Shown here: piece after piece, positions 1,621 through 45,600 of the stretch
Position numbering within the stretch: position 1 is the stretch's first letter
How the letters are laid out: every line of letters begins with the position of its first letter
From: Felis catus
Taxonomy: Eukaryota
Direction of reading: 5' to 3'
DNA length: 64,000 bases
Assembly: GCF_018350175.1 (NCBI RefSeq)
Contig: NC_058368.1
Location: 113,398,001-113,462,000, forward strand
Made by a program: the position numbers and the translations under genes
The notes under the pieces: generated by a model
Database searches by the model: none
The model's input: only the letters and a program-made list of their open reading frames with translations
Told to the model about the DNA's origin: nothing

Positions 1621-1621
1621 A

Positions 1622-1760: not shown

Positions 1761-1812
1761 AAGTTCATATTTTATATACTATGTTATACAATCTTTAAAA
1801 TTTGTAACTACA

Positions 1813-3870: not shown

Positions 3871-3914
3871 CAATCATGAGAGGATGCACCCCAATAAACA
3901 GGAAAGAGGAATGG

Positions 3915-5543: not shown

Positions 5544-5545
<2 letters not shown>

Positions 5546-5581
<36 letters not shown>
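5546..5581. repeat. (GT)n microsatellite
   Basis: Seen directly. Confidence 0.97.
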
Positions 5582-5583
<2 letters not shown>

Positions 5584-6368: not shown

Positions 6369-6483
6369 CTGGGGAGAAGGTGCTTGCGGCTGACACACAG
6401 GGCAGTCTGGTAGTCCTGGGTCACACACACTTTGTGAGGGCTGCACTTCACCTTCAGGCAGGGGTCTTTCGATGGGTCCAGGG
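6369..6483 (-). CDS. SPOCK1: Testican-1 internal coding exon (115 nt, phase 1 in / phase 2 out; probably exon 4)
   Basis: Minus strand reads CCCCTCTTCTTGCTCTTTTTGCCTCAG|CCCTGGAC...CTCCCCAG|GTAAGG: polypyrimidine acceptor and consensus donor. It translates to (A)LDPSKDPCLKVKCSPHKVCVTQDYQTALCVSRKHLLPR, which I recognise as testican-1. The exon number is from memory of the human gene. Confidence 0.96.
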
Positions 6484-7409
6484 CTGAGGCAAAAAGAGCA
6501 AGAAGAGGGGGGCGGTGAGGACTTCTGAGGAAATTTAGTTTCTCTTTCAACTCAAATAAACAAATGGGAAATAAACAGACCACGTGTTTGCACTCTGGGC
6601 GGTTTTCTTAGGCTGATGGGGATTGGAATGAATACCCAAACCGAGGGGAATTCTGTGTCTACTGCACATGTTCTGCTTCAGCATCAGGATAGTGATTCCT
6701 TTGTGCTTTGGGGAGTTGCAGCATCTCCATGTCGGGCAGGAATTACTTTTAAAATCCTTTAGAATCTTACATACTCCAAGGACCAAGAGCTCCTTTTCCC
6801 TCTTTGGTTATCTGCCTGCAATTGCTTTTTATGACTTCATCCATGCCTACCTTTACTTATTTCCTACCACGTAGAAAGTCCTTGAGGACAGAGTTTTTTT
6901 GGCTCCAGTTCAATCGACACGGACTGTGTGCATCAATAAGCCCATGTTAAATTTTGGGAAGAGCTTCAGGAGGCCCAAAACCATTTTGCGCCACGCAAAG
7001 TTCCAACATAATAAGGAAGGGAGAAAGCTATACATAAATATTTATTGTGCGAGGCAGAATGAGATAAGGGCCATGACGGGCATATAAAATGATAACGGAG
7101 CTCCAGAGAAAAACAGAGATCAATTTCTGGGGCAAGGATTAATGAGGCATTAATATGTGAACTGGAAGGATGGGCAGAGTTTGGGAAAGCGAGGTTACAA
7201 AAGGCAGTCTAGACTGCCATGGGTGGACCATCACAGGGCACTTGATCCGATCAGTAAGTGTGGCCTGTGGGTGGTAATGATGGCGGGGGGCAGGGGGCGG
7301 TGTGCGGAGAGGGGATGTGGAGTTGACCAAGGCACTCCAGAAAGGGTCTCCCAAAACAGCGGTTCCAAAACTGCACCGTTTTCCAGAAAAGGCTGAGTGA
7401 CGGGCCCTG

Positions 7410-7890
7410 GGCTAATCAGCGCCCCGCACACCGAGGTGCGCACGCTCATTACGGCAGCGAAGAGGCCGCAGGGAATTCTCCGCAAAGCAAAAGCAATTGT
7501 GCCGTCTCCCAGCTCCAGGCCTAGGCCTATTAGGCAGTAAATCCTTCATAACTTTCTCCTCAGCCCGCGGAGGCGAGGCCTCCCCGTGTCCTCCCCACGC
7601 AAACATTTGGTTAAACAAATTGGCATCCTGAGCAGGGACAGCAAAACTGCCATGAGAAACGCCATCGTGCCCACAGCTGCCGGGTCCCCCGGCCACCACG
7701 AGACCCCTGCCCTTAGAGAAGCCGCGGTTCCTCTCAGCCCGCCCAGGCCCAGAACCTCCACACCATTTTCCTCAGACAGCAGCTGGGAGTTTCTCAAGGG
7801 ACCTGAACACACAACATCCGGAGGCGTTTCTGCTGCTTGAACAGTTCGGGGCGGCTCCGTCCGCTGCAGCAGCACCAGCCGCTATAAACA
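7410..7890. promoter_or_regulatory. CpG-enriched intronic patch (candidate internal promoter/enhancer)
   Basis: Local cluster of CpGs (gcgccccgc, ccgcgg, gccgcgg, ggcggctccgtccgc) in non-repeat sequence; function is inferred only. Confidence 0.35.
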
Positions 7891-8769
7891 CAAGGCAGGG
7901 TGCATTTTTAGGCCAGTGAGGCCAGCAACAAGACCCAGGTCCTGGTCCCAGGGGAGTCATCTGACAGAGCCTATGCCCCAAGGGATCGCCCGGCTGCCCG
8001 AAGCTTAGCAGAGGGAAACGAGGTGCAGGAAGAATAAAAGAGGCTGATTCGAGCCCCAGCGACAGGGCATTCACTTTGAACTCTTCAGCTGAGGGCTGCA
8101 TCTGGGAAGCAATGGCAGCAAGGCTTGTGTCCGCTTCCGGAGTCCTTCAAGCCAAGGCCTTCCAGAAACTCACAACAGGAGTTTCTGGTCCCAGGTGGAA
8201 GGCTCCCAGTCCTGGGGATGTCCACACGAGAAGCCAGGAGGCTGGTATGGCCTCAGACCACTGGCTCTTTCCTCGTGCAGTGTCTCCCACTCCCAACCCC
8301 AGGGTGGCTGTCCAGCCAACTGTGACTTGCCTCCCCAGGCTCATGCAAAATGCAGCCAACCTGAAGAACGATTACCAGATGACTGCTCAAGACGGACCGT
8401 GGCAATCCTCCACTGCTCCTTCTCACACGCCCAGCCACCACAGGATGAGGGAAGACATCGGGGATCTCAAGGAACTTGGGGACCGGACCACAGGCAGCCC
8501 CAGCCAAGGTGCCAGCCTAGGTGCTTCCCTGATAGGTGCTAAGTGCTCCAGAGCCCTCGGGATTTTCATGGGAGTGTATCGCAGAGATGGAAACTAACAG
8601 GCTGCCCTAGGAGGGTGGGTATCCAAATCTGAAGTACTCCATGACCAGCTTCGTGGCCAAATTTGAGGTTCTTTTTGTTTTTGCAGCCAACTGCACAAAC
8701 ACCAATGTCCGTCGACAGGCAGTACAATCTTCAAGGAAGTAAGTCAGCCGAGCATAGTTTGCAAGAGCA

Positions 8770-9140
8770 CACTCCAGACCCGGTGTTTTCGAGGGTGAAT
8801 ACGGCTTACTCATACCTCAGCTGCCTCCTCTATATGGTGAGGGTTATACCACCTGCTCTTGGTTTGGTTATCTTGAGGGTTAAAGGAGCTAATATTTGTG
8901 AGTCCTTAAAGCCAACTTAGTGTATGTTAAGTACCTCATAGGTGTTTGCTAATTTTTTGTGCATCTGGTCCCCAGAATGAGTCATAAGTCTTCATAAGAA
9001 CAAGACCTAACACCCACTGTTTCAGACATGCAATGAACTAAGCCCTATAACTGGATTATCATATTTAATTCTCAAAACCACCCAAGGAGGTGGCTGCTGT
9101 TAATGTGCCCGTTTTACAAATGAAGGTCTTAAAGGGGAGT
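8770..9140. mobile_element. MIR fragments (8770-8950 plus, 9050-9140 minus)
   Basis: cctcagctgcctcctctatatggtgagg...gtgagggttaaa; ccgttttacaaatgaagg. Confidence 0.55.
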
Positions 9141-12100
9141 CACCGATGAGAGGTGCGGAGGGTATCTGACACTTGGCCCATCGACTCCAGAACGCAAACT
9201 CTTCGCATTCATAGGCCAGCAGCAAAACAATCACGTAGGATCTCCTCTGAAGGGTTGACTGTGGGGTCCACCTCACACCAAGTATGGAGCCCACAGGCAC
9301 CATGTTCTTGGGAGTTCTTGGGGCATAAAGAAAGCCAAGGGGTAAGAAGAGGAAGGGGGCAGTGAGAGAATCTGGTGCTTCCCAGGTCGGGCCATGCAGG
9401 ACTGCCCCCATGGACCTCACACAGCCCCAGGGCTTCCCGAGAAGGGAAGGTGCCCAGCTCCGGGAAACCGTGCCCTCTGCGCTCTCCCTCTGAATGCGGC
9501 AACCCTCCAGCTAAGTCAACAGACCAGTGTCCTGGTCGGTCTTCTTTCTGTAGCCTTTCCATGTGTGACACTACCATTAGGCTAACTACTACGGATCGCC
9601 CCCCCCCCCCGCCTCCAATTCTTGAAGCCAGCATTTCTTTACAAAGAAATCCAACGAAAAAATACTAATAAACGAAAATGAGTCACTTAACTCCATATAC
9701 ATACCTAACAATTTGCATACAGAAATCAAGTCTACTAAACATTAATTACCAGGGTCTGAATACTTCAGACATGGATGCGGATTATTTTGAGTAAATGAAC
9801 TTCATAGAACAACAGAACAGTAATAAATCAAGCTGCCAGCATTCATTTAATCACCAAGGGGCATTTTGTTTCCGAAAAACAGCCACACTGAGATGGAAAG
9901 GGGATGAGGGTGGTACAAGGAGTGTGTCATTTCCCTTTAAACGCCGTCTCCCAAGCGAGCTTTTCTAAGCAGCCCCAAGGCTCACAGCAATACTCTGGAA
10001 AGAAGCTGACACCCGCATTGGACAGGGCTGTGTGGCTCCACTTTCTAAAGGGAACGATAACAGATCAGAATAATAAGCAGCATTTGAGAGGCCCTTTAAT
10101 AAGGCGCAGAGAAAGAGTGCAGGTGAGGAGGCAGGGAGAGAGCTGAGTGCTCGTGATAACTGGGAGCAGGCCCAGAAGCTTCCTTGTCAAGGGCTAATGA
10201 TTTCTGGAGCCTGAGCTCTGAGTCTCTCTCTCTCTCTCTCTCTCCAAGCACAGGCTGAGTGACAGGAGGCAGCGATCCCCACAGGATGGCAGAGCCCTGC
10301 GTGCCCTCCACTGCCTCTCTCAGGGCACCCGCAGGACTTCTCCGGGACAGCACACCTGGCACAGAGCAGGTGCCCACGGGAGGTTAATTCCCTCTCTCTG
10401 CCCATTTCCCAAGACCAATCAAGTGTCAAGTGGCAGAAGACACATGTCCAAGTAATTCGTTGACCAATTTTTACAAAAACCATTTTCAAAGAAAAAAAGA
10501 CCAGGAACACATTAATTTAAAGAGAGATTTGTTAAGCTGAAAAACACTGACTTCCAAAGCAAGTTAATTATAGGCTTCGTGTAATTTTTTTTTCATTAAT
10601 TTTATTTTTTAAGCTCACTGCTTGGTCTCAATTAAGGTAGTGATATTTTAATTATCTTAATTGTTTCTAAACTTGTTTTCCGGTTTGAGTTACTTTTTAA
10701 TTAGCTACATTGATTTTAAAATCCAGAATCAAGCCTTTTTGCCGTCGGCGGGCATATCCCATAAGCTCACTGGCAAAGGGTTGTAATTCCTGTGAGAGCA
10801 GAACGGGCTACCCCCTCAGAGGTGCTGAGATGAGGGAATGTTCCATTTTGTGGGTTGGCCCCAGAGTCCCTGAGAGGCGCCCAGGGGGCTGACACACACT
10901 TGGGTTTATTCCCTTAACACCTGTAGAGCTTCTGTTCTGTGCAGGCTAGAGGCCGGCATCTCCAGAGTGAACGTGAAGACATTCCTACCCTCCAGGGGCT
11001 CACAGCTCCATAAGGATGACAGACAACAGAAGGGCAAGTTCAGTGAGTTAGGGGAGATGTGGGTACCTTGGCCAGCCTTTCAGGGGGTAGGGAGAGCTCC
11101 TTGACAGACAGGTATCTATGGAAAATGGGTTTAAGGCAGGTAATAGGGTGAAGAAAACATTCCAGCTCGGAAGCAGCTCTCTTCCCAGAGGAATCAAGGC
11201 AAGTTTGGGGGGAACTAAAGCATTTGTTGGGGCCACTGCAGGTTGCAGCAGGGGTGGTATGTGGGAAAAGTGGACAGAGTGGCAGCAGCACCATGAAGGG
11301 CCTTTAGGGGATCACGGTCTCCAAATCCTACAGTGTTGGCAAACATGGCAGAACCTGGTGACCTTTGGCACATCCTCCCATGCTGAAGTTAGTGGAGAAG
11401 CTATAGGGAGAGAGAACCCTTTATATACCTTTTTCAGGGTAAGTGGCACTTTGATAAGAACAGACAAGCTGCACACTCTCACCCTCCAAAGAAGAGGGAT
11501 ATCAGGGTGGAGGTCTCTGTGGTTGGCTCTTAGAGCTTCCCTTTCCCCCTTTGCAGAACCTCTGGGGACACTGAGCCATGCAGGATTCTGGGAGGCAAGA
11601 AGCCTACCCAGTGAGTCTGACAAGCAAAGACATCATCTACAACAGTCATGTGAACTTGTGGTCCACTCTGGTGACTCCAGGGAACGTCCACAGACAAGAG
11701 GCCGCTCAACCTACAAAAAGTTGACAAATTAATGAATGTTTTCTGTCTTCTTGTTGTTTTGAAGACTGCTCTCTGCCTGAATCATGCTCAACTGAGGTTC
11801 ATCTGAAGAGCAGACACTCCCAGTGATTCATTAGCAGTGACTTAATGGATGAATGACAAAGAAATTACTCCAAACTGCTAAAACCTCGTCAAGCTAAGAT
11901 CCCAAACATTTATTACAGCTTGTCTGTCCCCATGGTAACCTGGGCATGCATCTTGCTCCCCCCCTCTCCCAACCTCTGGAGGGGCTTGTTTACTAGCTGA
12001 CGACAGAGCCGCACAGAATACAAAACAGAAGATGCTGCCCACAGAATTCTGCTGGAAACAGAAGAATGACAGTTTGGAAAACCTCTGTCACCATTTTCAG

Positions 12101-12405
12101 CTTTCCAATCGAGGTACTGGATGTGTTCATGGGAGGCTGAACAAAGGGGCCCAATGGCCATGTGTCTGGATAAGACAGGCAGTTGAGTGACACAGACAAC
12201 TGAACATGTATGCCCTAGGAAGGGGGGGAGGGGACGGGAGTGGATGGGGACACAGACAGATAAGGACAGAGGAACAGAAGATAAAAAAAGGTGCATCTTA
12301 CCTAAGGAACCCGTCCTGAGAAGAGACATTTTCTTTTCCCTTCAAACAGAGGACCTAAGAACTCTTTCCTTTCTGTGTTATAACTAAAAGCATCCTCTCT
12401 CTTAC

Positions 12406-12408
<3 letters not shown>

Positions 12409-12447
<39 letters not shown>
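12409..12447. repeat. (TG)n microsatellite
   Basis: Seen directly. Confidence 0.97.
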
Positions 12448-12448
<1 letters not shown>

Positions 12449-12499
12449 TGGAGGCTAAGTTGTATAAACTGGTAATGGGCAATTATTCAGCCATGTCCC

Positions 12500-12715
12500 T
12501 AAATGCTAACAACGGTTAAATACAGGTAGATGGGTATAGAGGAGTTTATTTTATCATTCCATCAACTTTTGGGTATATATGAAAACTTTAATATTAAAAG
12601 GAAAGAAAAGAAAAAAGAAACATCCTACAAGCCAGCAAGTTAACATATAAGGCAAAAAATGTACATCTCGATAGTCTACAGGAAGAGGAAATTATCAACA
12701 AGTTGAATGTCCATC
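12500..12715 (+). mobile_element. Old L1M (L1ME-like) fragments
   Basis: Degenerate L1M 3' sequence ending aatgtccatc, which resumes at 16212. Confidence 0.55.
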
Positions 12716-12957
12716 TACTCTACCTGGCTTGGGCTACCGAAACAAAATACTAGACAGTGGGTGACTTGGACAACAGACTGTTATTTCTCACAGTTCTGGA
12801 GGATGGATATCTGAGATCACGTTGCCACTATGGCCAATTTCTTTGAGAGCTCTCTTGCTGGCTTGTAGATGGCCACCTTCTCACTATGTGAGAAGGCTTT
12901 TTCTCAGTGTATACACACAGCAAGCCAGTAAGCTCTGTGATGTCTCTTTTTACTCTG
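12716..12957 (-). mobile_element. MLT1 (MaLR) LTR, left part
   Basis: aaaatactagacagtgggtgacttggacaacaga...tatttctcacagttctggagg...gcttgtagatggccaccttctc matches MLT1A/B/C in antisense; preceded by ccatc (12711-12715). Confidence 0.85.
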
Positions 12958-12963
12958 CATACC

Positions 12964-13368
12964 TTTTTTAAAAAAGACTTTATTTACTTTTTTACTTAAA
13001 TCCACATTAGTTAACATATAGTGTAATAATGATTTCAGGAAAAGAATTTAGTGATTCATCACTTACATACAACACGCAGTGTTCATCTCAAGTGCCTTCC
13101 TTAATGCCCATCACCCATTTGGTCCATCCATCCACCCAACAACCCTCCAGGGGCCCTCACTTTTGTTCTCTGTATTCAAGAGTCTCTTATGGTTTGTCTT
13201 CCTGTTTTTTATCGTATTTTTGCTTCCCTTCCCATATGTTCATCTGTTTTATTTCTTAAATTCCAAATATGAGTAAAATCATATGATATTTGTCTTTCTC
13301 TGACTAACTTATTTCACTTAGCATAATACACTCTAGTTCCATCCGTGTTGTTGCAAACGGCAAGATTT
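12964..13368 (-). mobile_element. L1 3' end (carnivore L1), directly 3' of the EEF2 retrocopy
   Basis: Minus strand: AAATCTTGCCGTTTGCAACAACACGGATGGAACTAGAG...CACTATATGTTAACTAATGTGGATTTAAGTAAAAAAGTAAATAAA, a typical carnivore L1 3'UTR with an A-rich tail. Confidence 0.92.
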
Positions 13369-13397
13369 TTTTTCAAGTTTAAAACATGTATTTAAAA

Positions 13398-13610
13398 TTT
13401 TTTTTAATGTTCATTTATTTTTGACAGAGAGAGAGACACAGAGCATGTGCGGGGGAGGGGCAGAGACAGAGGGAGACACAGAATCTCCCACAGGCTCCAG
13501 GCTCTGAGCGGTCAGCACAGAGCCTGACGCAGGGTTGAAACTCACAGACTGCAAGATCATGACCTGAGCCGAAGTCGGACGCTCAACCTACTCAGCCACC
13601 CAGGCACCCC
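13398..13610 (-). mobile_element. Can-SINE (feliform SINEC_Fc-like)
   Basis: Full head, (CT)n and A tail; perfect 18-bp TSD TAAAACATGTATTTAAAA at 13380-13397 and 13611-13628. Confidence 0.95.
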
Positions 13611-14023
13611 TAAAACATGTATTTAAAATACAATTCATAAAATGCTTAATCTGCTGACTCTGGAGCCCTCGGTGCGGGGTGGGGTGGGGTAGGCAGCTGC
13701 CCGCTAAACCAGCAGAGCAGGACTGCAGGGGTGTGGCCCTCCCTCCCATGCCCTTCTGCTCAGACACCCAAGAGGCCCATGGGCACCCCTGGGATCACAC
13801 AGCCAGAAAACAGGTCCCCAGATGTTTCCAGAGTCTCTGCTTACCAGGGAGGCTGGGGCAGCCCTGCCAGCTCATCCCTGAGCAAAGCATCCCCACATGG
13901 GGCAGAGCAGGGTATGGCTGGGCTGGACAGGGCAGGGCGGGGCACTGGGCTCTGGAAGAGGCTGATGGTAGCAGATAGGGTGTTGCCTCCTGCCTGCAGG
14001 TGGGGAGCACCCTGATTTGTTTT

Positions 14024-15977
14024 TCACCACCATATCAAACTTATTATTCCAATGGCACTAATACAGCTGGGGGTGTTCACGGTGATGCTGCACAAAGTTT
14101 CCTGCGTTTTAGCTTCTTCCCAAAGAGAAAGGTCTACCCGCCTGTTCCTTCCCCCTTTCTGGGGGAAAATCCACCACAGACTATTTACCCAAATAAACCT
14201 CTTAATGCCTTTTTTTTTTTTTTTGACATTTGAGTTTCTGAAATGGAAAAAAAAAAAACTGTTGAGTGTCCCATCCCGCCTCCCCCACTCCCACCGGCTA
14301 AATAAGTCCCTGTTGCCAGGGCATTTCTGTTGCCTCTGATATCTTGAAATAAACATCGAAAGAAATGGCAGCAAGTGTTCACGTTGAGTGATGGCACAGA
14401 GTGGGCCCCAGAACCCATCAGGTGGAGCATCACTGGGGACAGTCTTGAGGTGTCATGGAGAATGCGAGGGCTTGCTGTGGTCGATTGTCAGCCGAGGGCA
14501 AGGGCTGTGCTGAGTCCCACCCAGGGTAGTGGACTGCAGGGAGGGCAGCCTACTATTTGTCCAGGAAGTTGTCCAGGGCTGGGATTCCTTCCTTCAGGCC
14601 CTTGCGCTTGTGTGTTTCGGCCATCACCTGGCTGGGGTGGCTGGTGTTGTTGAAGAGATCCCCAGGCAGGGTCTGCCAGTGGTCAAAGACGCACTGGGAG
14701 AAGGCCTGGCCACCAGGGTTGGACCTCAGGTCAGCAGTGAAGCTGAAGGACTCGTTCACAGGCAGGTAGGCCTCCACGACAAACACGGGGGTGCCGGCTG
14801 GGACTCCTCAAAGACGTGACCATGCTTCCTGTTCAGGACACCATAGATGCCACTAGCCACTTGTTCTGGACACTGAATATCCACAAGGTAGACAGGCTCC
14901 ATGAGACAGGACTGAGTGGTCAGCACACTGGCACAGAGACAGCGCCAGCCAGTGGGGATGATCTGGCCACCGCCACGGTGGATGGCATTCGCATGCAAGG
15001 TCACATCAGGGATATCGAAGCACACACCCCACGTGTTTTCCTTGCACAGGGCTTCCTCTTTGGTGGCCCAGTGGAAGCCAGCTACCATACTGTCCTTGAT
15101 CTCGTTGAGGCACTGCACACCCTTGGTGATGTCGGTGAGGACACTGGGGCTGGCGTCAGGCCCAAAGCATCAGATCTTGTGGGCTTCTGCCACATCCTAC
15201 TCATACTTCTCAGCCAGATAGCGGACCTGCTGCTTGAGTTCTTGGCGGACAGACACTTCGCCCTTGTCGATGTCCTTGGCCAGGCCATCAGGGAAGGGCC
15301 GCACCTTCATGTACAGCTGGTTGTGCCTATTTTGGGACTTGGACAAGCAGAGCACACTCGACTCCTCACTGACCATCTCCCGGTAGGACACCACGGGGTT
15401 GGATTTCTCGATGGGAATGCACGCGTGGTCCTCCTCCAGGTCCTTCAGACAGATCTCCAGGTACAGCTCACCAGCCCCTGTGATGATGTGCTCCCTTGAC
15501 TCTTCAATGATGCCCTGCACTGTGGGGTCCCACTTAGCCAGGCATTCAGGCCCTCCACTAGCTTGGGAAGGTTGGCTGGATTCTTGGCCTCCACAGCAAT
15601 CCGGACAATGGGGCTAACACTGAACTTCATCACCCGCATGTTGTGGGCATGCTCGAAGGTGGTGATTGTGCCATTCTTCACCAGGAACTGGTCCATGCCC
15701 ACCAGGCCCACAATGTTCCCACAAGGCACATCTTCAACGGGCTCCACATAATGGCCCATCTTTAGGAGTGTTCTCTGGATGGGCTTCAGGTACAGGTCCT
15801 CCTTCTTCCCAGGTGTGTAGTTGGGCCCCATGATCCTGACCTTGAGACCAGTAGACACCAGCCCCGAGAATACGCAGCCGAAAGCGTAGAACCAACCTTT
15901 GTCAGAGGTTGGCACCATCTTGGAAATGTACATCATAAGTGGGCCTTTGGGGTCACAGCTTTTAATGCCCATGGCTG
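14024..15977 (-). pseudogene. EEF2: EEF2 processed pseudogene, 5'-truncated (C-terminal ~55% of CDS plus 3'UTR)
   Basis: Intronless match from [27 protein letters not shown] to [16 protein letters not shown]. It has in-frame stops (15197-15199 TAG, 15170-15172 TGA, 14553-14555 TAG) and frameshifts near 15540 and 14795. The original stop is at 14550-14552, followed by a recognisable EEF2 3'UTR to ~14024. The diphthamide His codon (14978-14980) is retained. Confidence 0.97.
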
Positions 15978-16010
15978 AACCGTCACCCGGAGACCATATA
16001 TACATACTTT

Positions 16011-16013
<3 letters not shown>

Positions 16014-16059
<46 letters not shown>
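16014..16059. repeat. (AC)n microsatellite at the retrocopy 5' junction
   Basis: Seen directly. Confidence 0.97.
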
Positions 16060-16060
<1 letters not shown>

Positions 16061-16064
16061 ACGA

Positions 16065-16211
16065 GATGTCTCTTCTTATATACTATCTTACAGGAATAGG
16101 GCCCTACCCTGACGACCTCATTTAACCTTGGTTACCTCTTTAGATGCCCAATCTTCAATACAGGACACTGAGAGTTAAGAGTTCAACATATAAAACATTC
16201 AGTCTGTAACA
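16065..16211 (-). mobile_element. MLT1 (MaLR) LTR, right part
   Basis: tgtctcttcttata...gacctcatttaaccttggttacctc...ttcaacatata...attcagtctgtaaca continues the same LTR; followed by tcatc (16212-16216), a 5-bp TSD-like match. Confidence 0.85.
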
Positions 16212-16360
16212 TCATCTATAAGGAAACTGTTACCTTAATTACAAGACATCCATTCATGAAATCTTGTCCAGCTGTTATAAAAGAGGAAGTAGATCAGTGT
16301 GTACTAACACAGGTAGATATTTATAACAAATTAAGTAAGGAAGCAAGTTAAAATATTTGC
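16212..16360 (+). mobile_element. Old L1M (L1ME-like) fragment, continuation
   Basis: catccattcatgaaatcttgtccagctgttataaaagaggaagtagatc resembles the L1M motif catccatacaatggaatactatgcagccgttaaaaagaatgaggtagatc. Confidence 0.6.
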
Positions 16361-17229
16361 AATGGCAAAGTAACTTCCAAACACCAGACAACTAATAAAC
16401 AGCAAAACTAGTACTCAAACTAGGTCTGCTTCTCAAGGAAGGACCTTTCCCTTTGCTATCCTGCTGACCTTGAGAAGTCCTTCTGCCCACAAAGTCCTAG
16501 CCTCCACCCACTTACACACCAGAACCTTCCATTTCTCTACTATGTGAATGAATTCAGACACCCTATGCCGTCAGGCCAACACCACACCTGATGTCTGTAT
16601 ACACTGGTCTACAAACCTCACCTGCAAAAAGTAACCTTTTCTTGCTTCTTAGAGAATCTTGCCTGCAGCGGGGGAAACAATGAAGTCATGACTATTGTCC
16701 AGAGCAAGAGCAAGTGTCCAGCCCTAAGAGAATTGGAATTCGCTTCTGAGTTGTAAGAGAACACCCTGGACCTGGCTGGAACTACACAGCAGTGACTGGA
16801 AAGAGCTTTGCCTTTCAGCTCATGGGCAAAACAAGACATTATGAGCAACCACTGCTAAGTCCTACTTGTCTAATTTACAAGTCCTGATCATTAAAAAAGA
16901 ATGTATTAAGGGAAGTCTACAGCAGCAGTGGAAATATGCTCCATAAAATCACAAGCCACAAAAGTATATTAACCAGGCCAGGCAATCCCGCTTTCTCAAA
17001 GCTATCATCCCATACCAACCTCAGTTTCCCAGTTGTTCTGGGATGGTAAACAAAAGGACCCTCACTCCACGTTTCTGCCAAGAAACTGATTTCCTTGTAA
17101 AAGTGGGATAGGGAGAGAAGAGGATAAAAGGGAGGGGGGTAGTATTAACTACATGGAAAGAAAAGGAAAGAGGGAGCATTTTATTACATAATGCATCATC
17201 CAGTTGAGGGACTAACAGTGGCGACAATG

Positions 17230-17395
17230 ACACTTACCAACTATATATAGAATAATGTACTATTTTTCTAATTAACCAATGAGGAAACTGACACAGAGAT
17301 GGTAAGTAACTAACTTGTCTGTGGTCACGTAGTTGGTAAATCTGGACTAGAATCTAGAGTACTCTCACACCAAAGCTGATGCTCAGAGCCACCAG
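17230..17395 (-). mobile_element. MIR
   Basis: aatgaggaaactgacacagagatggtaagtaact...ggtcacgtagttggtaa. Confidence 0.7.
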
Positions 17396-17777
17396 GCCAC
17401 TCATGAGCAGCTTATGATGTGGAGAAAAGTGACAAATACAGTGCCAAGAAGCAGCATGTTGAACATCCCTGTCCACCGCCCCCAAGAATCATGTCGCCCA
17501 AAGGATCCACAAGAAGAAATTAATACTGTGAAGAAAATATTGTACTATTCAGAAGTCAAAGCCAGATTGTTGAACATTTGAGTAAGCGTATATTACTTTT
17601 ATAATGAATATGAAGGTCAAAGTTTCTTTTCAAGGTGATGCTCATGCCCAGTCAACTTAATTTTCTCTCTGACTTAAAAAACAACATGGACCCAGGGAGG
17701 CTTGTGGTTCCTTCTCTCAGGGATTCTGTGAAGCCTATCTATGGTCCACATCACTGACCAGGAGGTGCATGAGGTTT

Positions 17778-35635: not shown

Positions 35636-37291
35636 CCTGTTCAAGAACTGTTTGNNNNNNNNNNNNNNNNNNNNNNNNNNNNNNNNNNNNNNNNNNNNNN
35701 NNNNNNNNNNNNNNNNNNNNNNNNNNNNNNNNNNNNNNNNNNNNNNNNNNNNNNNNNNNNNNNNNNNNNNNNNNNNNNNNNNTGCTAGTCAGTGCTAGTC
35801 AGTCTCATCATCAGGGGTAGACTAACCAACCAGCAGACTGAGCCTGTGCTGAGGGTCCGACACATACATGTGTAAGACTGTGGTATTTCACAAACAATAA
35901 ACACCACCAAGCTGTGGATAAGAATCACAGGAAATGGAACTGTATTGCTCTTTCTTGAATGCATTTTGTAGTTTAGCACTGTTTTTATTTTGAAGTGCCT
36001 ATGAAGGTCAGAGCTTAGGAATCTGAAAATTTTTAGCCTGGCTCTGCTCAGTGAATAGTTCTCTCTGCATTTATCCCATATCCTTAATCACGATACTGAC
36101 TCCTATGGGGTAAAGGCTGGGCATTTCTGGTCCTCAGTATCTAGCTACCACCTATCTCGCACCATCTATGTGTTAGGTAGTTACCAAATCCTAAGTATGC
36201 ATGTTAGCATTCAATCCTCCCACAATGTACCACAAAGTATACAGTAATAGCATTTTATAGTAAAAGACACAGAGGTCAGAGAAGGTAAGGACCTGGTCCT
36301 AATTTACCTGTCTTGGTGAAAGGTCCAAACATACTCTAAGGGATTCAAGAGCTTCTGGGTCTAATCTAGCCAGCAAGTTATGTCCCTTAACGATAACTCT
36401 CAGGCATCTGTCATAGTCAAATCCAACGACCCAAGTCCTAGGAGCTAAAGGAAACTTGAGCTGTACCTAAGCCAGCCTCCAGTTTCTGCCTAAGCTTTCC
36501 CTCTGGAAAGGAGGCCATCTCCTCCAACCTGGATGTGGGCACTCTGTGGCGGCCTGTGCTGGAAGGTGACAATCCCACACTGAGTGGAAACCCTTCCGCT
36601 AGCAGGTTAAACATACTTCTCTCCTCTCCACAGGGAAGGGACAAGCTGACCTAACTCGGTGGCATAATTGGCTTTCATATGCTTCAAGACAATTACTAGG
36701 TCTCCCTGCAGGCTTCTTTTCCTGAGGCTACAATTCCTAATTATTTTTCACACGTGCCCTAATTTCCAACTCCACAATCAAATCTGTTGCTCTCCTTTGA
36801 ACCGTGCCCTTGCTGTCCTTTGCAGTTAGTGGTCCTGACACATGGGTATCATGTCCCAGTGCCTGGTCTTGTCCATCCTCTTAGGCCTGACTCAGGTGCC
36901 TGGATCACCAGGGCAGAGGTGAAAAGGACCATCGTAAAAGGTGGCTGACAGCCCCCACCCCAAAAGGGAGCAATGACTTGATCACAAATTCCATTACAAA
37001 GCTGGATCATTGGCAGGTCCAAGCACCCAGAAGTTGGTGGCACAAAGGGAAGAAATACCATTCTGACTTGGCACCAGGGAAGTCCTAGCCCTTCATGAGC
37101 CCCTGATGTTCTCTAAGAAGTGATAGAGACAGCCAGAAAAGAGGGGTCTAGCACATGTCCATAGGAAGGAATGAAGAGGAGTGAAGGGAAAAGGGGTATG
37201 ATGCACCCTGTGGAGAAGGCATCACCTAAGGGATGGTGCACTGCCAGAGACAAGATGGCCACCACTGTCTTACCATGCTGTACGTGTATGT

Positions 37292-37292
<1 letters not shown>

Positions 37293-37332
<40 letters not shown>
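37293..37332. repeat. (CA)n microsatellite
   Basis: Seen directly. Confidence 0.97.
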
Positions 37333-37334
<2 letters not shown>

Positions 37335-37921
37335 ATGCAGATCTAATTCCTACTCCTTCCACAGATGTCTATGACTCATTTAGTCCCTGCCCTCAAAAAG
37401 CTTCCAAGATTACAAAAAGAAAGGGACCAAGTGTCACAAGGGAAAAATGACGTTACTATGGCAATGAACGTTATGAAGAGAGAGAAATCACTACCTGTAC
37501 CAGGCATGAAGGGGGCTTACAGACACAGGGGCAACGAACGTGGGGGCAGTGGCAGGGCGTGCTTAACAGTGCATGCTAATACAAGACACATGGAAATTGG
37601 CGGGGAGGAAAGCCAGGCGACCAGCAGTGACAATAAAAGCCCCAGTGTTTTTGGCAGGTAAAATTGAGTAAAATTTTGAGTAAAACTGTGATATAACTGG
37701 AATTGTACATGATTTACAAATAATATTGAACATAACATCTTTACAAGTGCAAATGTTCAATCTCTCTAATTCCCATGGAAGCCACTCGGGGACAAAGTGC
37801 AGTTGTGCCAGGAAAAATATTGTAGAAGATTGCAAAGTGTTACATTTTGGTCTATCCACTCCTGGAAGTGCTGGATTGCTCCATCAAGAGTTACTGTCAG
37901 TCAATATAGCACAGTGGGGGT

Positions 37922-38108
37922 GGGGGCACATGGGTGGCTCAGTTGGTTAAGCCTCCTACTCTTGATTTCGGCTCAGGTCATGATCTTGTGGTTCGTGGGT
38001 TCCAGCCCCGCAGTGGGCTCTGTGTGGACAATGTGGAGCCTGCTTGGGATTCTTTCCCTCCCCCTCTCTCTCTGCCCCTCCAGTGTGCACGTGCTCTCCC
38101 TCCCTCTC
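37922..38108 (+). mobile_element. Can-SINE lacking an A tail, inserted in a MIR
   Basis: ggggcacatgggtggctcag..., ends within the CT region; the MIR resumes at cagtggttaaaagc. Confidence 0.85.
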
Positions 38109-38320
38109 CAGTGGTTAAAAGCTAAGGCTCCAGGTTTCTAATCTCAGGCTTACCATTTACTAGCTGTGTGATCTTGGATGGGTTACTTAACTTTTCTTCA
38201 CCCTCAATTTCTTTATTTTTGAAAAGGGAGAAACAATTATAGCCTTGTCACAGTTGTCGAATGAGAAAGCAGGCAATCCATGTGAAGTACTTTGCAGAGT
38301 ACCTGGCATAGAGGATGTGT
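38109..38320 (+). mobile_element. MIR
   Basis: accatttactagctgtgtgatcttggatgggttacttaac...agtacctggcatagag. Confidence 0.75.
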
Positions 38321-39099
38321 TCCCCAAAGCTCCTCAACCATCCCCTCCAGCCCTATCAGTACCCTCCCCCATGACCATCCACTGAGATGAGCATGATTTA
38401 GATCTGCATATGTGGATATACCTCAAAACACACATGTAGGTACACACACACTTGTTTGTAACAAATCCTAAGCAGTGACTCCTTTGGGGGAAATGCACGA
38501 TTTGTTCAAAGCTCACAATTAAAAAATGCATCTACAATAAAAGTGAAGGCAGGATGTTGGCACTGCCCAGGCCTATTTTTTGTCTCCACTGATGCTAACT
38601 TTAATGCTACAGAAAGAGGCTTCTGGACCAGGCTATCAACCCCAGGAGAATGCCAACAGCACTAAATTTTTACCCAATCTTCCTAATGACTGAATTAATC
38701 TGAGGCAACAACCATTAAAATCACCAGCCCATCTTGCTTTATAAGCTCCTAAAATGAGAACTGCCCAGCAAATCCCAAAACAATGTTTTACTTGTCTTCT
38801 AGGGAGGAAGATCCTGTCCCTTAATCACGTAAATGGCCAACATGCCTTCAATTCTCTTCAGCATTTGCCATCAAGGTCATCTCGAACAGGCTCAGAGGGA
38901 GGGCTCGCCTGAGGCCCTACACTACTAGAGGAAAGAACCAGTTCCATCCTTGGCAGGGGGTACACCCACAAGGGGGTGGTGATGTGACTTAGCACCTGCC
39001 CTAGACGCTGAGAAGATCCTTACATGTCACCACGGACATTCACACTTTGGTAGAATGAGCCTCAAATGTTGTCATTCAAAGGCTCAGAATCCTGCTGCT

Positions 39100-39268
39100 T
39101 GCTCTCCAAGGCCATTCATTCATCTCCATTCTCTGAGCGCACTATATATCCAGGCTTATGTTAATGTTAATTAACCAATTCCTCATCTCTGGGGTTTTAC
39201 TCCTTTCTGTAAGTTGCACTTCCCGGGTTTGGGCGCTACCCAATAAGATGACAAAATATCTCCCTTCA

Positions 39269-39309
<41 letters not shown>

Positions 39310-39874
39310 CATGCACATACATATACACATATATGCACATGTACATATACTTTCCTAATTAAACTTGACTATAAGAACCCATCACCTGTTAAGTCCTCAG
39401 AAAGACCATTACTCCATCAAAAAAGGCAATAACCCGAAAGGATGTCCTCGCCAATACAAATCAGCCACAGGTTAGCGGGACAGGCTAACAGCTGATATGG
39501 ACAGTTCCTGCATGTGGAACTAACAAACAGTGTATGGTTTGCCAAATACAACGACAGTTGATGCAGTGCCAACAAAATCCTAAGGACCACGCATCCCTGT
39601 CGTATGAGAATCTCCTAACGGGCATTCCCGGTGGTGGGCACGGGTGGACAGAGGCACGATGACCAGGTCTACCGACCTAACGGCAAGACTACAATTCCCT
39701 TCGCTTTACTCCTCTGCAAGTTCATATCATGTTCTCTGCCACAACGTATCCGGTAGCACCCAAAGCCTGGAAGTGCACCTTATAGAAAGGAGTAAGACCC
39801 CAGAGACAAGAGGACTTAAAGGCTGAATATAGTGTGCTCAGAGAACGGAGATGAACGAATGGCCTCGGAGGGCA
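39100..39874. repeat. Long inverted repeat (arms 39100-39240 and 39752-39874, ~510-nt spacer)
   Basis: Hand alignment: 39186-39240 vs 39752-39806 gives 49/55 identical in reverse complement; 39100-39147 vs 39827-39874 gives 43/48. Confidence 0.93.
39272..39306. repeat. (TG)n microsatellite inside the inverted-repeat spacer
   Basis: Seen directly. Confidence 0.97.
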
Positions 39875-41029
39875 GCGTCTGTCCCTTGATAATTGAACGT
39901 TGGGTACGCATTCTTCTTGGTATCTGCAGAAATTCCTCGCAGAGAAAACCCACCATGTGGAGTTAAAGACAACATCTGTTTTCTTTGAAATCGGGGCAGC
40001 TTCAGCCAGTAGGCAGAGCAGGTGTCCTGTGGCCCAGGTGTGCCAACGGCCATCCACATTATCAAAGGCATCTTCAAAGGAGTCCCAGGGCGGGATAAAT
40101 AATGCACAGAAGGGAGTCCAGAGGCCGCTTCACTGGGAAACAGCCCCTGGCAGCAGCTGGGTTAAAGAGCTCAGGGCGCCCAGCGTGGGGAGAAAATAAA
40201 GCTAAGAGAGAACCAGGGAGGAAGGCACAAGGGGAAGAGGTAGGAGTCCAGAGGGAGTGACAAAGAAGAGGGGAGAAAAACAGATAAGGAAAAAGCAGAC
40301 AAAGGCACTCTGGGAAAAGAGGCTTAAGGAGGTCAGGGAGGGGAGACACGTAGGGGTTTGGGAAGGAGGGGAAGGCGGATGGAGAGTCTGTAAGATAACA
40401 AAGTTTAAAACTCCCGTTCACATTAACGCACATAAAAAAATATCTTCCACAAAAATGCTGTCGGACTCGAAGATAAGAGGAAGGGGAGCCCCAAGCATTC
40501 ACTTTGAAGAGTCTTTTTAAGAAATGTCTTTGGTGTCAGCCAGGAGAAATAAATGAGGAGGGGGAAGGAATGGAGATCTCTGACTTCGTGTGCGAGTGAG
40601 GCAACAGGGGAACAGAGTCCATCCAAAGCCTTCAAAATGGGGGTCAAAAGAAGAAAAGCCCAGGGAGCATCCTGGTCTCCCAGCCAAGGTGGAACAGAAG
40701 TAAAGGAACTTGTGGCCACCAGGCCAGGGAACTGGAAAGACCTCAAACACCACAGATGGAAAGGGCAACGCACCTGCTCAGTGGCTCCCTCTGGAAATCA
40801 CCTCCACGTGTTGACAGGTGAGCAGAGAGAAGTCAATAGCTTGGGAGAGGTGAATCTCTGAGGCCACCTGATCCCCAGCCCCGAAGCAGCCCACCTCACT
40901 GCCCAAGGGGCCTCTGAACATCCAGCTGCTTTGCACAAAACTGCCAGGACATTAGCTCATCTTTGATTATTTAACACTGACTCCCCTCCTAGGAGATGAG
41001 TTCCATAGGAGAGGAACTTTTGTGTTTAC

Positions 41030-41250
41030 GTCTCAATCCTCTGTGCTTAGCACATTGGTAAACACACTTTGTGGAACAAGCCAAAGATTGCAAGTCTTCT
41101 CTATGCAACACCCTCAAGGAAGACCTCACATGAGCACACAGCTCACGTTTAAGGACACTGAGGCTCAGGGAGGTCAAGGGATGGGACTTTTTGCAAGACA
41201 GAAGAGCAGAGCAGGCATCAAATTCAGAAGCCCAAGGTCCTTTCTCTAGG
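41030..41250 (-). mobile_element. MIR
   Basis: taaggacactgaggctcagggaggtcaaggga...aaattcagaagcccaaggtc. Confidence 0.65.
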
Positions 41251-41659
41251 GAGAGTGGAGAATAACAGAGTCTGGTCATTAACAGCCCATCCAGCTCCCT
41301 TCCCCTGGGAGACCACAGCTGGAGCCACCCTCTTACAGTCCTCTGCCCCCCGGGAGACAAGAGAGCAGAAATAAGCAGTGTGATGTTTTCAGACCCAGAC
41401 CATCAGTGACCCACTTCTGGGCTGGCCTAATGTTGACCAACATCTCTGACCCTGGATTCCCACCCCAAGGGATGCAGGGATCAACTGTGGAATGGCATCA
41501 AGTGTCACAGGAGAAGCTCGTGGGAGGGGTGGCATTTTAGCACTACCTTGGTCAGAGAAGGGAAAGAAGGTGCCCTGAGCTTCCGAGAGAAGCCTGGGCT
41601 CCTTGAGGGGAGGCGACACCCCATCTCCACACCTGCAGGCCTCCCTTCACCCGAGTCCC

Positions 41660-42480
41660 CCACTGTGTGACTGCTCATCTGACATCACTCATCCAGCAGG
41701 GAGCTCTCACTTAATGTTCAAAAGCAACACTTTTCATTCTAGAAAACCTGTTGTTCCTCACGTCTTTTCCATCTCAGTAAACGACACACTAGCCCCTTGG
41801 ACCTGAAGCCAAGGCCACATGGATCCCTCTCTCTCCCTCACCACCTACCACCAATCAGTCTCACTGGCCTTAAATATATCCTCCATATGGTCCCTTGTCT
41901 CCATCCTCATTGCCTCCCTGGACACCGGCAGCAGCCTCCTACCTGGACTCCTTCTTCTCCTCCTGGGCCCTACGATCTGCCCCCTGCGGGCAGCGAAAGC
42001 CATAGACTAGAAATGGGAATCTCACCTCAGCCCTGCCTTGCTTGACATCTCTCCAGTGACTTGGAAAACCTCTCCCACGGCCTACAAAATCCTGCACAAC
42101 TGGGGCCCTGTCCTCCCCTTGCCACTCATCTCTGGCTCCCTTACCCCTCTGGTCCAGCCACCACGGCCTGCCTCCCTTCCAACCCTTCCAAGAAAGCTCG
42201 TTATGTGTGGAATGCTCTTCCTCAGAGCTCCGCATGCCTTCTTGTCACTCACATTCTGGCTGCCTCCAAAGGGACCTCCTAGGCCACCGTTTCTCAAGAA
42301 GCTGCCTCGATAATGTCATCCTGACTTTTCTTTGTAACATTTAGCACTATGTGATGTTTTCTTTCTTATCTCTCCCAGGAGAATACATGCCCACAAGAGC
42401 AGTGATCTTTTCTGGTGTTGTCAACCACTGTGTCCCCTGGGCCTAGGAAAGTGCCTGGAACAGGCAAGAGCTCAGTATAA
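41660..42480 (+). mobile_element. L2 3' region
   Basis: tcttttccatctcagtaaacg...cagcctcctacctgg...ccactgtgtcccctgggcctaggaaagtgcctggaacag. Confidence 0.75.
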
Positions 42481-42618
42481 CCTTCACAAAGAGCCAACCA
42501 CCCCTCTGCATCCCCAGGGACTAGCACAGCAGCTAGCGAGCCCAGATGAGCAAGTGCACTGAAAAATGCGGATGCGGTGGGCAGTGAACAGTGATTCCAT
42601 TCCAAGCTGGCCTATGAA

Positions 42619-42643
42619 GTGCTCGCTTCGGCAGCACATATAC
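42619..42643 (+). pseudogene. RNU6: U6 snRNA 5' fragment (nt 1-25), tailless retropseudogene
   Basis: GTGCTCGCTTCGGCAGCACATATAC is the exact U6 5' end; flanked by direct repeats caagctggcctatgaa (42603-42618) and caagctggcttatgag (42644-42659). Confidence 0.93.
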
Positions 42644-45600
42644 CAAGCTGGCTTATGAGGCATTTCTAAGGCTATTCAGGCTCCTTAAACTCTGGTATTA
42701 TTTTTACTCCAACATTGCAAAGAGGTTTTGATTACAAAAACAGGACGGTGCAGAAAACACAGAATCCATCCCTACTCTGCTAAGATCCCATCCATGGGTT
42801 AAGGGAAAAAAAAAATTACAGGGACCCATTTTCTATCCATACCCAGTGAAAAAACAAGCTCTCTGTCCCCCTTTCCCCTTTTGATCTAAAAATAAAGGCC
42901 CGGCTCTGAGTTCCTGTGAGAGCATCTGATCTAAGATCTGATTTCGTCTCAAAAAAGGCACAGACATTCGCCTCCCCTTAATAGGGCATAATGCCACCAA
43001 TTAGTTAACTTACACATTTAAGTTGTCCCACGGGGTAGATTACAGACTCCCAGGGATAGCAGACCTACGGGGGTCATCCTGTTCCCTCTGTGCATTGTTG
43101 GGGTACCCTGGAGGCCTGGGAACCATTCCTGTCTTTAGGGGAAGGATACCTTCTAATGACACCTATTTTTCCAACCACTTCCACAGCCAAAAAGTCCTTC
43201 TACAGCAGGCTAAGCCCTGCAGAGCAGGAACAGGTGACCTGCCCTGCTCTGTTCTTTCCACAGCAGAGACAGACCGAGGTTCTCTCCCCAGGCTGGGGAG
43301 CAGCAGTGCAAGGTAACAGACCTGCTCCAAGCCTCAACTGGGCCACTTGCCAGTTGTGAGATGTAGGGCAGGCTCCTGACTTTAGCGAGGAGGAAGGATG
43401 TAGAGGACATCTGTGGACTTCTGTGAGGATACAACATAGACAAGGCCATCTCCCCCCCTTAGGCCATGCACTTCTTGAGGCCTAAGGCCCTGCCTCCCTC
43501 CCACAAGGCCCCTGAGCAACACGGACTGCGCCTTCACTAAATGCCAGGCACCAGACATTGACAGGAGCTGATCTCGTTCATCCTCAGAATAATGCTACTA
43601 AGTGACCATCAGTGTCATGATTTAAGTGAGGAAAACGAGCATCAGAAAGGTTAAATCACTTGCGTACGATCACACGGCCACCGAGGGGCTGAGCTGAGAT
43701 CCACCAGATCCCGCAGAGGGGAGAGCTCCAGCTTTACCCTGCACCACCCTTGGCCACAGCAAGCCCAGAACATGGGCCACCCAGCACATGTGAGCACTTA
43801 CCGAGTAGAACATAACATACTCTGTAAAGCAAGCAAGTACCACTCCACTATAAGCTACTACTAGTAACTTATATTACCTTTTGTAATGGTAATGTTTGTA
43901 AGCCTGCCCTGAGCCAGTTTTAAATAAGGAGGTGAGGTGGGAGAGAAGAAGAGAGGTCTGACTCTCTGAAGCACCAGGCGCCTTACCTAAATTATCACGT
44001 CTTATTCCTCGAAGACTCTGAGCTAGACATTATCATCATTTTATAGGAGAGAACACCAAACTCAAAGAAACCTCTAGCTTTCTAAGCCTGAAGCCAGTGG
44101 GTTTTATTTCCCAAAAACCCTGCTGGAAGACTCTCAGGGATTAGTCACTGCTCCGAGGGGTGGTCTCCTTCCCGGGCACCATTCCTTGACCACTGTAGGG
44201 ACGCCTCCAGCTATGGCCAAGACACTCCCCACCCTGCTACTCTTTGGCTGAAAGAAAACCAGGAGAGCCAGAAGTTCCAGAATATTCAGGTCAGAGCTGT
44301 GAGGTCTCCTTTCTCCTCCCCAGCTTTCCTCCTTCCCACAGGCTGATGAGTGCGGACTCAAAACAGAAACCCCCAGAGTTCGGGCACTGGGAGAATGGAA
44401 AAACACAAAAAGGCCATGAATGAGTCACTCGTTATCCTGGTCCTCAAAACAAAAACCTGAAATACCATGTGATCCAGTAAATGGCTTGGAATAGAATACA
44501 AAATCCATCCTATATACATGTGAGATCTTGGGCTCGGCACTGGCGGGAGAGATGCGGAATAAAGGTGACCTCCAGATCTTAAGATTAAGGGTCTTCTGCC
44601 TTCAGGTGCCAATGACTCAAACCAAGTCCAAAAGCACTGACTGGGAAACACGGACAGCACTCAGCAGAAACGGAAAGGCTCCATGGGGCAACCAGTATTA
44701 TGTTGGGCAACGAAGACCACTTACAATTTCTAGCAGGTGGAAATGAGGTATTCTGGGTAGGAGCCGCAAGAGCAAACATGGGAAGGAGAAGAAACTGAAG
44801 ACATGGTACAGAATGCTCTAGTCTGGATGTCTGTGAGAATAGAAGTTCTGCTTTAGACTTTATTCCATAGTCAGTGAGAACCACCGTCAGTTTCTGGGGA
44901 GGGCAGTGACACGCAGGGATCTTCTTTATGATCCTTCACTCCATCAGCCATGGGGACTGGAGTGGACCGGAAGCACCAGTCAACCAGGGACCATGGTTCT
45001 GCTCACAGAATGGGGCTCTCTGAAACTCCAGCCTTAGAAATGAAATTCCAGGCTGGATTCAGAGAAGGAGAGATAACGTCAAAAGGCAAGACTGGGAGGG
45101 AACCTGCTGGCTTCCCATTCCGAGAAGCTTCCAGCTTGCCATCAGCTTTGTGCCTCTCTTTTGCTGCATTTGAATACAACATTAAACAGAACTGGAACTG
45201 TGGTCCCCACGGAGGCTGGAAACTTTGGAGCATTAACTGACAAACAGGATTGCCGCTGTGCAAACTCCCAGGGCAAATGCAAAGTGTGAGCTAATCTTGC
45301 CGCCATCACCAATTCTCTGAGCTGAGGATAAAGTATGATAATCTAAATCGGGCTGGGCAGACGTCTGCCTGGGAAATCTGATTAGGTTTGCTTGATGATT
45401 ACTTTTCATCCTCCAGGAGACCGCAGGACATGGTGGACCAGACCTGGTCATGAAGGTGACAAGCCCCCAGTGTTCCAGTCCCCAAGGCATGCATCTGCCA
45501 AACTTCCATTGTTGGCTAAAGAGGATACAAGGACAACAGTCTGCAAATAATCTTGCAGCAGTGGGTTCATGGGAAGAGACCCACAGAGCTGAAGAGTTCA

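What the first reader, a model, noticed from the sequence alone, without database searches (positions are those of the whole stretch)
39100..39874. Unassigned ~90%-identical long inverted repeat that would form dsRNA in the SPOCK1 pre-mRNA
Seen: two reverse-complementary blocks (49/55 and 43/48 identical) with a ~20-nt AT-rich insertion in the left arm and a ~510-nt spacer; weaker similarity extends out to ~39050/39913. Neither arm resembles Can-SINE, L1, L2, MIR or any MITE I recognise. Eight of the 11 differences are transitions, five of them at CpG sites. On the transcribed minus strand four become G-U pairs and four become A-C mismatches. Known: long intronic duplexes with A-C mismatches are preferred ADAR substrates, and SPOCK1 is expressed in brain. 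Inference: this is an uncharacterised long-TIR/foldback element, a local inverted duplication, or a maintained RNA structure.
Basis: partly seen in the sequence, partly recalled or inferred. Interest (0 to 1): 0.7.

Follow-up and report, generated by a model that had tools for sequence, protein, structure and literature searches.

The report
Old inverted duplication in SPOCK1 intron
About 125 bases of otherwise single-copy DNA in a long intron of the SPOCK1 gene have a backwards copy 510 bases away, likely left by one old DNA-copying accident; similar pairs occur elsewhere in this genome, and nothing seen shows that the RNA stem the pair is predicted to form has a job, so it looks ordinary.

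Summary
The inverted repeat is real. It lies deep in a ~121-kb SPOCK1 intron. Three arm patterns found only the two arms in the 2.4-Gb genome, so no multi-copy family of similar age appears, and it is not a misassembly. It is also not unusual: 1.2 Mb of background tiles held three comparable two-copy inverted repeats, and SPOCK1 holds a longer, more perfect one. That matches the local 'inverted duplication' class described in human genomes. Nothing points to a selected RNA structure: G-U versus A-C mismatches are 7:4 (p=0.27), both strands give equally stable duplexes, and six inverted SINE pairs in the same gene form stronger stems. Editing and orthologue covariation were not properly tested: no brain RNA reads or non-felid orthologues were available. 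Best reading: a neutral local inverted duplication, likely from a replication template switch roughly 25-40 million years ago, that may incidentally form dsRNA. Low interest.

The parts
39100..39240 (.). Left arm of the inverted repeat (two blocks separated by an AT-rich 18-nt segment)
39158..39175 (.). AT-rich 18-nt segment present only in the left arm (placement approximate; insertion versus deletion not polarised)
39098..39150 (-). Outer part of the left arm with weak likeness to an L2/MIR-type 3' tail (family label recalled)
   Evidence: best non-self BLAST hit E 0.037 in 1.86 Mb; mean score to 12 tail-bearing fragments reached by 5 of 400 random windows; nhmmer profiles gave no hit
39241..39751 (.). 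511-nt single-copy spacer, no Pfam or Rfam family, CpG-rich in its right part
39272..39350 (+). (TG)17.5 microsatellite and following CA/TA-rich simple repeat inside the spacer; source of the sub-threshold Rfam miRNA matches
39752..39874 (.). Right arm of the inverted repeat
   Evidence: covered without differences by one RNA-library contig
6369..6483 (-). SPOCK1 coding exon (peptide ALDPSKDPCLKVKC...), the next exon downstream in transcription, 32.6 kb from the repeat (gene name recalled from the peptide)
   Evidence: PF10591 exon on the same strand 139 kb left of the window

Best explanation
The feature is a two-copy inverted repeat in a SPOCK1 intron, likely made by a single local inverted duplication and likely decaying neutrally since. 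Inferred mechanism: during replication or break repair the polymerase switched to the opposite strand a few hundred bases away, copied about 125-140 nt in reverse and returned, leaving a backwards copy 511 nt from its source. The arms then gathered substitutions independently (11 transitions, 5 transversions, CpG differences in both arms) and small indels. K2P distance between the arms is 0.10-0.15; at a recalled carnivore neutral rate near 2e-9 per site per year and with no arm-to-arm conversion, that is roughly 25-40 My. In SPOCK1 pre-mRNA the arms are predicted to pair (124 long-range pairs, longest helix 35 bp), so low-level ADAR editing in brain is plausible, but as a by-product like that of inverted SINE pairs. 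Shown: coordinates, identity, two copies by these searches, intronic position, commonness of the class, lack of strand asymmetry. Inferred: template switch, age, neutrality, RNA pairing.
For: Two copies only: three arm patterns of 27-34 nt with up to 3 mismatches each hit just the two arms in 2.43 Gb, and BLAST against 1.86 Mb of the same genome found no further copy of arms or spacer. Common class: 3 comparable two-copy repeats in 120 background tiles of 10 kb (L083, L113, L138) and a second in SPOCK1 (L045), with ungapped identities of 87-97%; each gave exactly two places in a genome search. Rate 2.5 per Mb, 95% interval 0.5-7.3. No strand preference: duplex energy is -179.8 on the transcribed strand and -181.9 kcal/mol on the other; G-U:A-C is 7:4, p=0.27; a 35-bp helix arises in 15-21% of random placements. 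In humans, 54% of sequenced inversion calls were inverted duplications, nearly all under 1 kb and within 5 kb of the other copy (PMC4617611, passages); opposite-strand non-tandem duplications made up 21 of 166 rearrangements in PMC5829575 (passages).
Against: No orthologue was obtained, so the pre-duplication state, the direction of copying and junction microhomology are not shown. Four of five CpG transitions keep a G-U pair on the transcribed strand (p=0.19), and the minus strand has the longer unbroken helix (35 vs 28 bp). A weak outer extension (21 of 380) flanked by a 6-nt direct repeat could be the remains of an older, longer element. The CpG excess at 39400-39949 (top ~1.5% of 1187 windows) is not explained. 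The genome DNA search is insensitive (it missed the left arm), so old or low-copy families are not excluded.
Confidence: 0.76

Rival explanations
1. A selected intronic RNA duplex: the arms are kept complementary because the stem is edited by ADAR or affects SPOCK1 splicing or RNA fate in neurons.
For: Stable predicted stem, mean pair probability 0.92 and a 35-bp helix on the transcribed strand. Edited non-repetitive human dsRNAs have a median length of 144 bp, and helices over 30 bp are preferred (bioRxiv 10.1101/2025.01.24.634786, passages). G-U-preserving changes are 7 of 11.
Against: The bias is not significant and the antisense duplex is as stable. The repeat is 33 kb and about 88 kb from the nearest exons found. 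Six of six top-scoring inverted SINE pairs tested in the gene, and the L045 repeat, form stronger stems. Only 4,597 of about half a million non-repetitive human dsRNAs are edited, and conserved ones are shorter and weaker.
Confidence: 0.08
2. An old inverted pair of L2/MIR-like fragments, or an older longer inverted repeat, was later made more alike by arm-to-arm gene conversion or quasi-palindrome correction, so the arms are older than their identity suggests.
For: The outer left block weakly resembles an L2-type tail. Identity is graded, 87% in the core and about 65% in the gapped outer extension. Conversion of imperfect into perfect inverted repeats is described (PMC5453318, passages).
Against: The resemblance covers only about 55 of 125 nt, is not significant for the right arm (51 of 400) and gave no nhmmer hit. 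The outer extension is not significant.
Confidence: 0.09
3. A non-autonomous, long-TIR DNA transposon of a very low-copy or uncatalogued family, spanning about 39053-39916.
For: Terminal-repeat-like layout; CpG-rich interior; a 6-nt direct repeat at 39047 and 39917.
Against: No third copy of arms or spacer. No direct repeat of 4 nt or more at the core ends. The 6-mer is offset from the aligned ends and is expected by chance in a few per cent of such searches (my estimate). No Pfam match above cut-off in 11 open frames. Terminal repeats should diverge evenly, not less in the middle.
Confidence: 0.06
4. Assembly artefact.
For: None found.
Against: The arms differ at 16 sites plus indels. Seven runs from 3 studies not flagged as the source hold 0.97 of the sampled words. 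One contig runs colinearly through spacer, right arm and flank.
Confidence: 0.01

Closest known systems
Inverted duplication ('Inverted Dup') structural variants of the 1000 Genomes phase 3 set (PMC4617611, passages read)
   Same: Short (<1 kb) segment copied in reverse within 5 kb of its source; not a retrotransposition product.
   Different: Those are young, near-identical human polymorphisms with both alleles seen. This one appears fixed in the runs seen, is 13% diverged, and its ancestral allele was not observed.
Non-tandem duplication, opposite strand (Frith and Khan, PMC5829575, passages) and four-point template switches of type 1-4-3-2 / 1-3-4-2 (PMC5453318, passages)
   Same: A local inverted repeat arises from one copying event; template switching is the proposed cause.
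   Different: The four-point examples in the passages read are short-range events, smaller than this 125-140 nt arm with a 511-nt spacer. Switch points cannot be placed here without an outgroup.
Non-repetitive intronic dsRNAs of the human dsRNAome (dsRNAscan, bioRxiv 10.1101/2025.01.24.634786, passages) and inverted SINE pairs as ADAR substrates
   Same: Long imperfect intramolecular duplex in a pre-mRNA; length and helix size near those of the edited non-repetitive class.
   Different: No editing or conservation is shown here; most such dsRNAs are unedited.
Long-TIR non-autonomous DNA transposons (MULE/foldback, MITE-like; features recalled)
   Same: Long inverted ends around a non-coding interior.
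   Different: No third copy, no clean target-site duplication, no transposase remnant.

Membership tests
Local inverted duplication (inv-dup) | Duplicated stretch under 1 kb, inverted, within 5 kb of the other copy | tested here: met
   123-141 nt arms, 511-nt spacer
Local inverted duplication (inv-dup) | Exactly two copies, not an interspersed repeat family | tested here: met
   sensitivity is limited for old families
Local inverted duplication (inv-dup) | Ancestral allele with one copy only; microhomology at the junctions | not testable with these tools
   no vertebrate relatives are held; metagenome scans gave 0 matches and 32 matches, none extending beyond 28 nt
Long-TIR DNA transposon | Dispersed copies in the genome | tested here: not met
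Long-TIR DNA transposon | Target-site duplication at the ends | tested here: inconclusive
   none at the core ends; an offset 6-mer at the weak outer ends
Long-TIR DNA transposon | Match to a curated repeat family (Dfam/Repbase) | not testable with these tools
   no repeat library is held
Conserved or selected RNA duplex / ADAR substrate | Stable long duplex on the transcribed strand | tested here: met
   predicted only:
Conserved or selected RNA duplex / ADAR substrate | Excess of pair-preserving (G-U) changes on the transcribed strand | tested here: not met
   7:4, p=0.27; equal duplex energies on both strands; few sites, so power is low
Conserved or selected RNA duplex / ADAR substrate | A-to-I editing in expressing tissue | tested here: inconclusive
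Conserved or selected RNA duplex / ADAR substrate | Covariation across orthologues | not testable with these tools
   no orthologues obtained
Known structured RNA family (Rfam) | Match at the gathering score | tested here: not met
   0 of 20 matches reach the gathering score; all lie on simple repeats

The most novel reading that the evidence does not exclude
A chance inverted duplication in the cat lineage has been co-opted as a neuronal RNA element: its 35-bp helix is site-selectively edited by ADAR in SPOCK1 pre-mRNA, it is kept paired by G-U-preserving changes, and it affects processing of the 121-kb intron. It would be a lineage-specific regulatory dsRNA born from unique DNA rather than from a transposon pair.
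Probability: 0.06. Interest if true: 0.55.

Novelty: new member of a known kind. Interest (0 to 1): 0.12.

Why it matters
As read here it matters little: it is one of probably thousands of old local inverted duplications in this genome (about 6,000 extrapolated from 3 in 1.2 Mb, interval roughly 1,250-17,700). The useful point is the background rate. Two-copy inverted repeats of 100-300 nt with 0.2-1.8 kb spacers are common enough that a strong fold z-score inside a brain gene is no evidence of function. If editing and selection were shown, it would be an example of a regulatory dsRNA arising from unique sequence.

Tried and rejected
Rfam scan of 36000-43000: 20 matches, none at the gathering score, all on simple repeats. 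Pfam on 11 open frames in and beside the spacer plus the SPOCK1 exon peptide: two hits at E about 0.2, below cut-off; the 39-aa exon also gave none. A viral or transposase origin of the spacer therefore has no support. Metagenome pattern scans for orthologues: 0 loci and 32 loci whose best alignments stop at 28 nt or less. Earlier-findings look-ups by place and by sequence: nothing. The protein atlas was unavailable, so the SPOCK1 name rests on recalled peptides plus PF10591. L2/MIR profile tests: nhmmer profiles from 5, 15, 12 and 46 genome fragments gave no hit on either arm; only a direct alignment score hinted at likeness for the left arm. Cryptic exon in the spacer: a crude motif scan of the minus strand found one acceptor-like and one donor-like motif in the wrong order, and the laid contigs showed no joints. 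Read laying: 0 reads from the one raw RNA run laid (about 1 in 100 of it read), which is no test. The two differences seen (39477 G>A, 39671 A>G) are in the spacer and look like alleles. Literature: three SPOCK1 searches gave 1 unrelated review, 0 and 0 papers. The dsRNAscan main text does not mention SPOCK; its supplementary tables could not be seen and may list human SPOCK1 duplexes. Searches were seen as listings; PMC4576756 and PMC5414712 were read as passages and added nothing specific.

Full report
Observation. The two blocks are exactly as reported: 39100-39147 against 39827-39874 is 43/48 and 39186-39240 against 39752-39806 is 49/55. As one alignment the core is 39100-39240 against 39752-39874, with 105 of 121 ungapped columns identical, 11 transitions, 5 transversions, 18-nt and 2-nt extras in the left arm and a 2-nt extra in the right. 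The spacer is 511 nt and contains a (TG)17.5 microsatellite. The minus strand of 39000-39999 folds at z = -10.2, with 0 of 20 shuffles as stable. The outer extension to about 39052/39914 is matched or beaten by 21 of 380 random flank pairs and the inner one by 56 of 380, so neither is established. 14 of 24 listed sequencing runs hold 0.97 of the sampled words of 38900-40100; 7 of them, from 3 studies, are not flagged as a possible source. One contig runs colinearly through spacer, right arm and flank. The repeat is real.

Context. A minus-strand exon at 6369-6483 encodes a peptide I recall as SPOCK1. A PF10591 exon lies on the same strand 139 kb left of the window, and further exons were found by short motifs at G000:C1:113.247, 113.380, 113.526 and 113.762 Mb. 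The repeat therefore sits in an intron of about 121 kb, 32.6 kb from the acceptor and about 88 kb from the upstream exon found. The gene name and the felid identity of the genome are recalled or inferred, not returned as an annotation by a call.

Copy number and family. Three arm patterns of 29, 34 and 27 nt, allowing 3 mismatches, each matched only the two arms in 2.43 Gb, with 0 control matches. DNA searches with the right arm and with the spacer returned only self, but that search is insensitive: it missed the left arm. BLAST against 1.86 Mb of the same genome found no other copy; the best stray hit was 55 nt at E 0.037 to an L2-tail-like stretch (label recalled). The left arm's mean alignment score to 12 such tails was reached by 5 of 400 random windows and the right arm's by 51 of 400, and nhmmer profiles gave no hit. 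The outer block may therefore include a decayed L2 end, but this is weak. No direct repeat flanks the core; an offset 6-mer flanks the weak outer ends. No Pfam or Rfam family passes its cut-off. A dispersed family as young as the arms' 87% identity is unlikely; a very old or very low-copy one is not excluded.

How common is it? I scanned 181 records (the window, 60 neighbouring tiles and 120 background tiles of 10 kb from 5 contigs; 1,864,000 bases) for inverted matches with spacers up to 3 kb. Of 363 hits, 14 had a left arm with no other match in the sample. Keeping those with at least 100 nt of arm, at least 85% ungapped identity and a spacer of 200-3000 nt leaves this repeat, L045 in another SPOCK1 intron (260/269, spacer 1015), L083 (175/182, spacer 1755), L113 (181/201, spacer 1133) and L138 (two rows, 45/50 and 61/69, a two-block layout like this one). 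Eight rows were dropped: four zero-spacer hairpins (L181, L082, L152, L141), one with overlapping arms (L100), one of 52 nt (L118) and two below 80% (L105, L108). L045, L113, L083 and L138 each gave exactly two places in a genome search. Three in 1.2 Mb of background is 2.5 per Mb (95% interval 0.5-7.3). The spread of identities fits a steady source and neutral decay (inference).

RNA-structure reading. On the transcribed strand 7 transitions give G-U and 4 give A-C (one-sided p=0.27); among CpG transitions the split is 4 to 1 (p=0.19). The arm duplex is -179.8 kcal/mol on the transcribed strand and -181.9 on the other. The transcribed strand has the longer unbroken helix, 35 against 28 bp, but 15-21% of random placements of the same mismatches give 35 or more. 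L045, in the same pre-mRNA, shows 2 against 3. In the 664-kb region 28 of 30 close inverted pairs are interspersed-repeat pairs. The six high-scoring SINE pairs I picked all form stronger stems on the transcribed strand (-265 to -369), as does L045 (-555). In human, about half a million non-repetitive dsRNAs are predicted and 4,597 are edited; edited ones have a median length of 144 bp and tend to have helices over 30 bp (10.1101/2025.01.24.634786, passages). Incidental editing is therefore plausible but is not evidence of selection.

Mechanism. Shown: a two-copy, intronic inverted repeat of a common class, with no strand asymmetry. Inferred: one template switch or templated repair event copied 125-140 nt in reverse about 500 nt away. 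K2P distance is 0.148, or 0.102 without five CpG transitions, roughly 25-40 My at a recalled neutral rate and older if the arms have converted each other. As a yardstick, 369 SINE matches to one SINE copy in the same sample have median identity 82% and quartiles 78-91%. Which arm is the copy cannot be told, because CpG differences run both ways.

Comparison with known systems. It fits the inverted duplications that made up 54% of 229 characterised human inversion sites, nearly all under 1 kb and within 5 kb of the other copy, and not typically retrotransposition products (PMC4617611, passages). It also fits opposite-strand non-tandem duplications (PMC5829575, passages). Template-switch types that create inverted repeats are described in PMC5453318 (passages). 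The defining test, an ancestral single-copy allele, could not be run. Three searches pairing SPOCK1 with inverted repeat or editing terms found nothing relevant. Earlier scan notes describe like cases in this genome and in camelid-type genomes; these are unchecked AI notes and are not counted as support.

Verdict. A real but ordinary local inverted duplication, confidence about 0.76; selected RNA duplex about 0.08; converted older repeat pair about 0.09; low-copy transposon about 0.06; misassembly about 0.01. Interest 0.12. Left unexplained is the CpG excess at 39400-39949 (22 CpG, top ~1.5% of 1187 windows).

Noticed in passing
L045:1052-1328 and 2344-2615 (G000:C1:113309052-113310615): A second, longer and more perfect two-copy inverted repeat in another SPOCK1 intron: 260/269 identical, 1015-nt spacer, predicted duplex about -555 kcal/mol. 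A better ADAR-substrate candidate than the finding.
   Followed up: partly
L083:346-527/2283-2464; L113:6777-6982/8116-8316; L138:720-879/1089-1208: Three background two-copy inverted repeats of the same kind; L138 has the same two-block layout with an indel between the blocks.
   Followed up: partly
window 39400-39949: CpG excess at only 46% GC (22 CpG, observed/expected 0.67, top ~1.5% of windows in the region), covering the right part of the spacer and the right arm. Possibly a germline-hypomethylated or regulatory patch, or the tail of the distribution.
   Followed up: partly
window 15448-16000, minus strand: Open frame resembling elongation factor EEF2 (recalled from the peptide), likely a processed pseudogene fragment in the same intron, next to a (CA)n repeat.
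   Followed up: no
window 37279-37342 and 39258-39339: (CA)n and (TG)n microsatellites in inverted orientation 1.9 kb apart could form a competing stem with the spacer.
   Followed up: no
window 39477 and 39671: Likely polymorphisms seen in laid contigs: G>A at a CpG (1 of the 1 run covering it) and A>G (2 of the 2 runs covering it).
   Followed up: no
window 39788 onward: One RNA-library contig of depth 36.8 and 1074 nt begins inside the right arm at 39788 and runs right. Contigs cannot show a transcript end, so this is uninterpreted.
   Followed up: no
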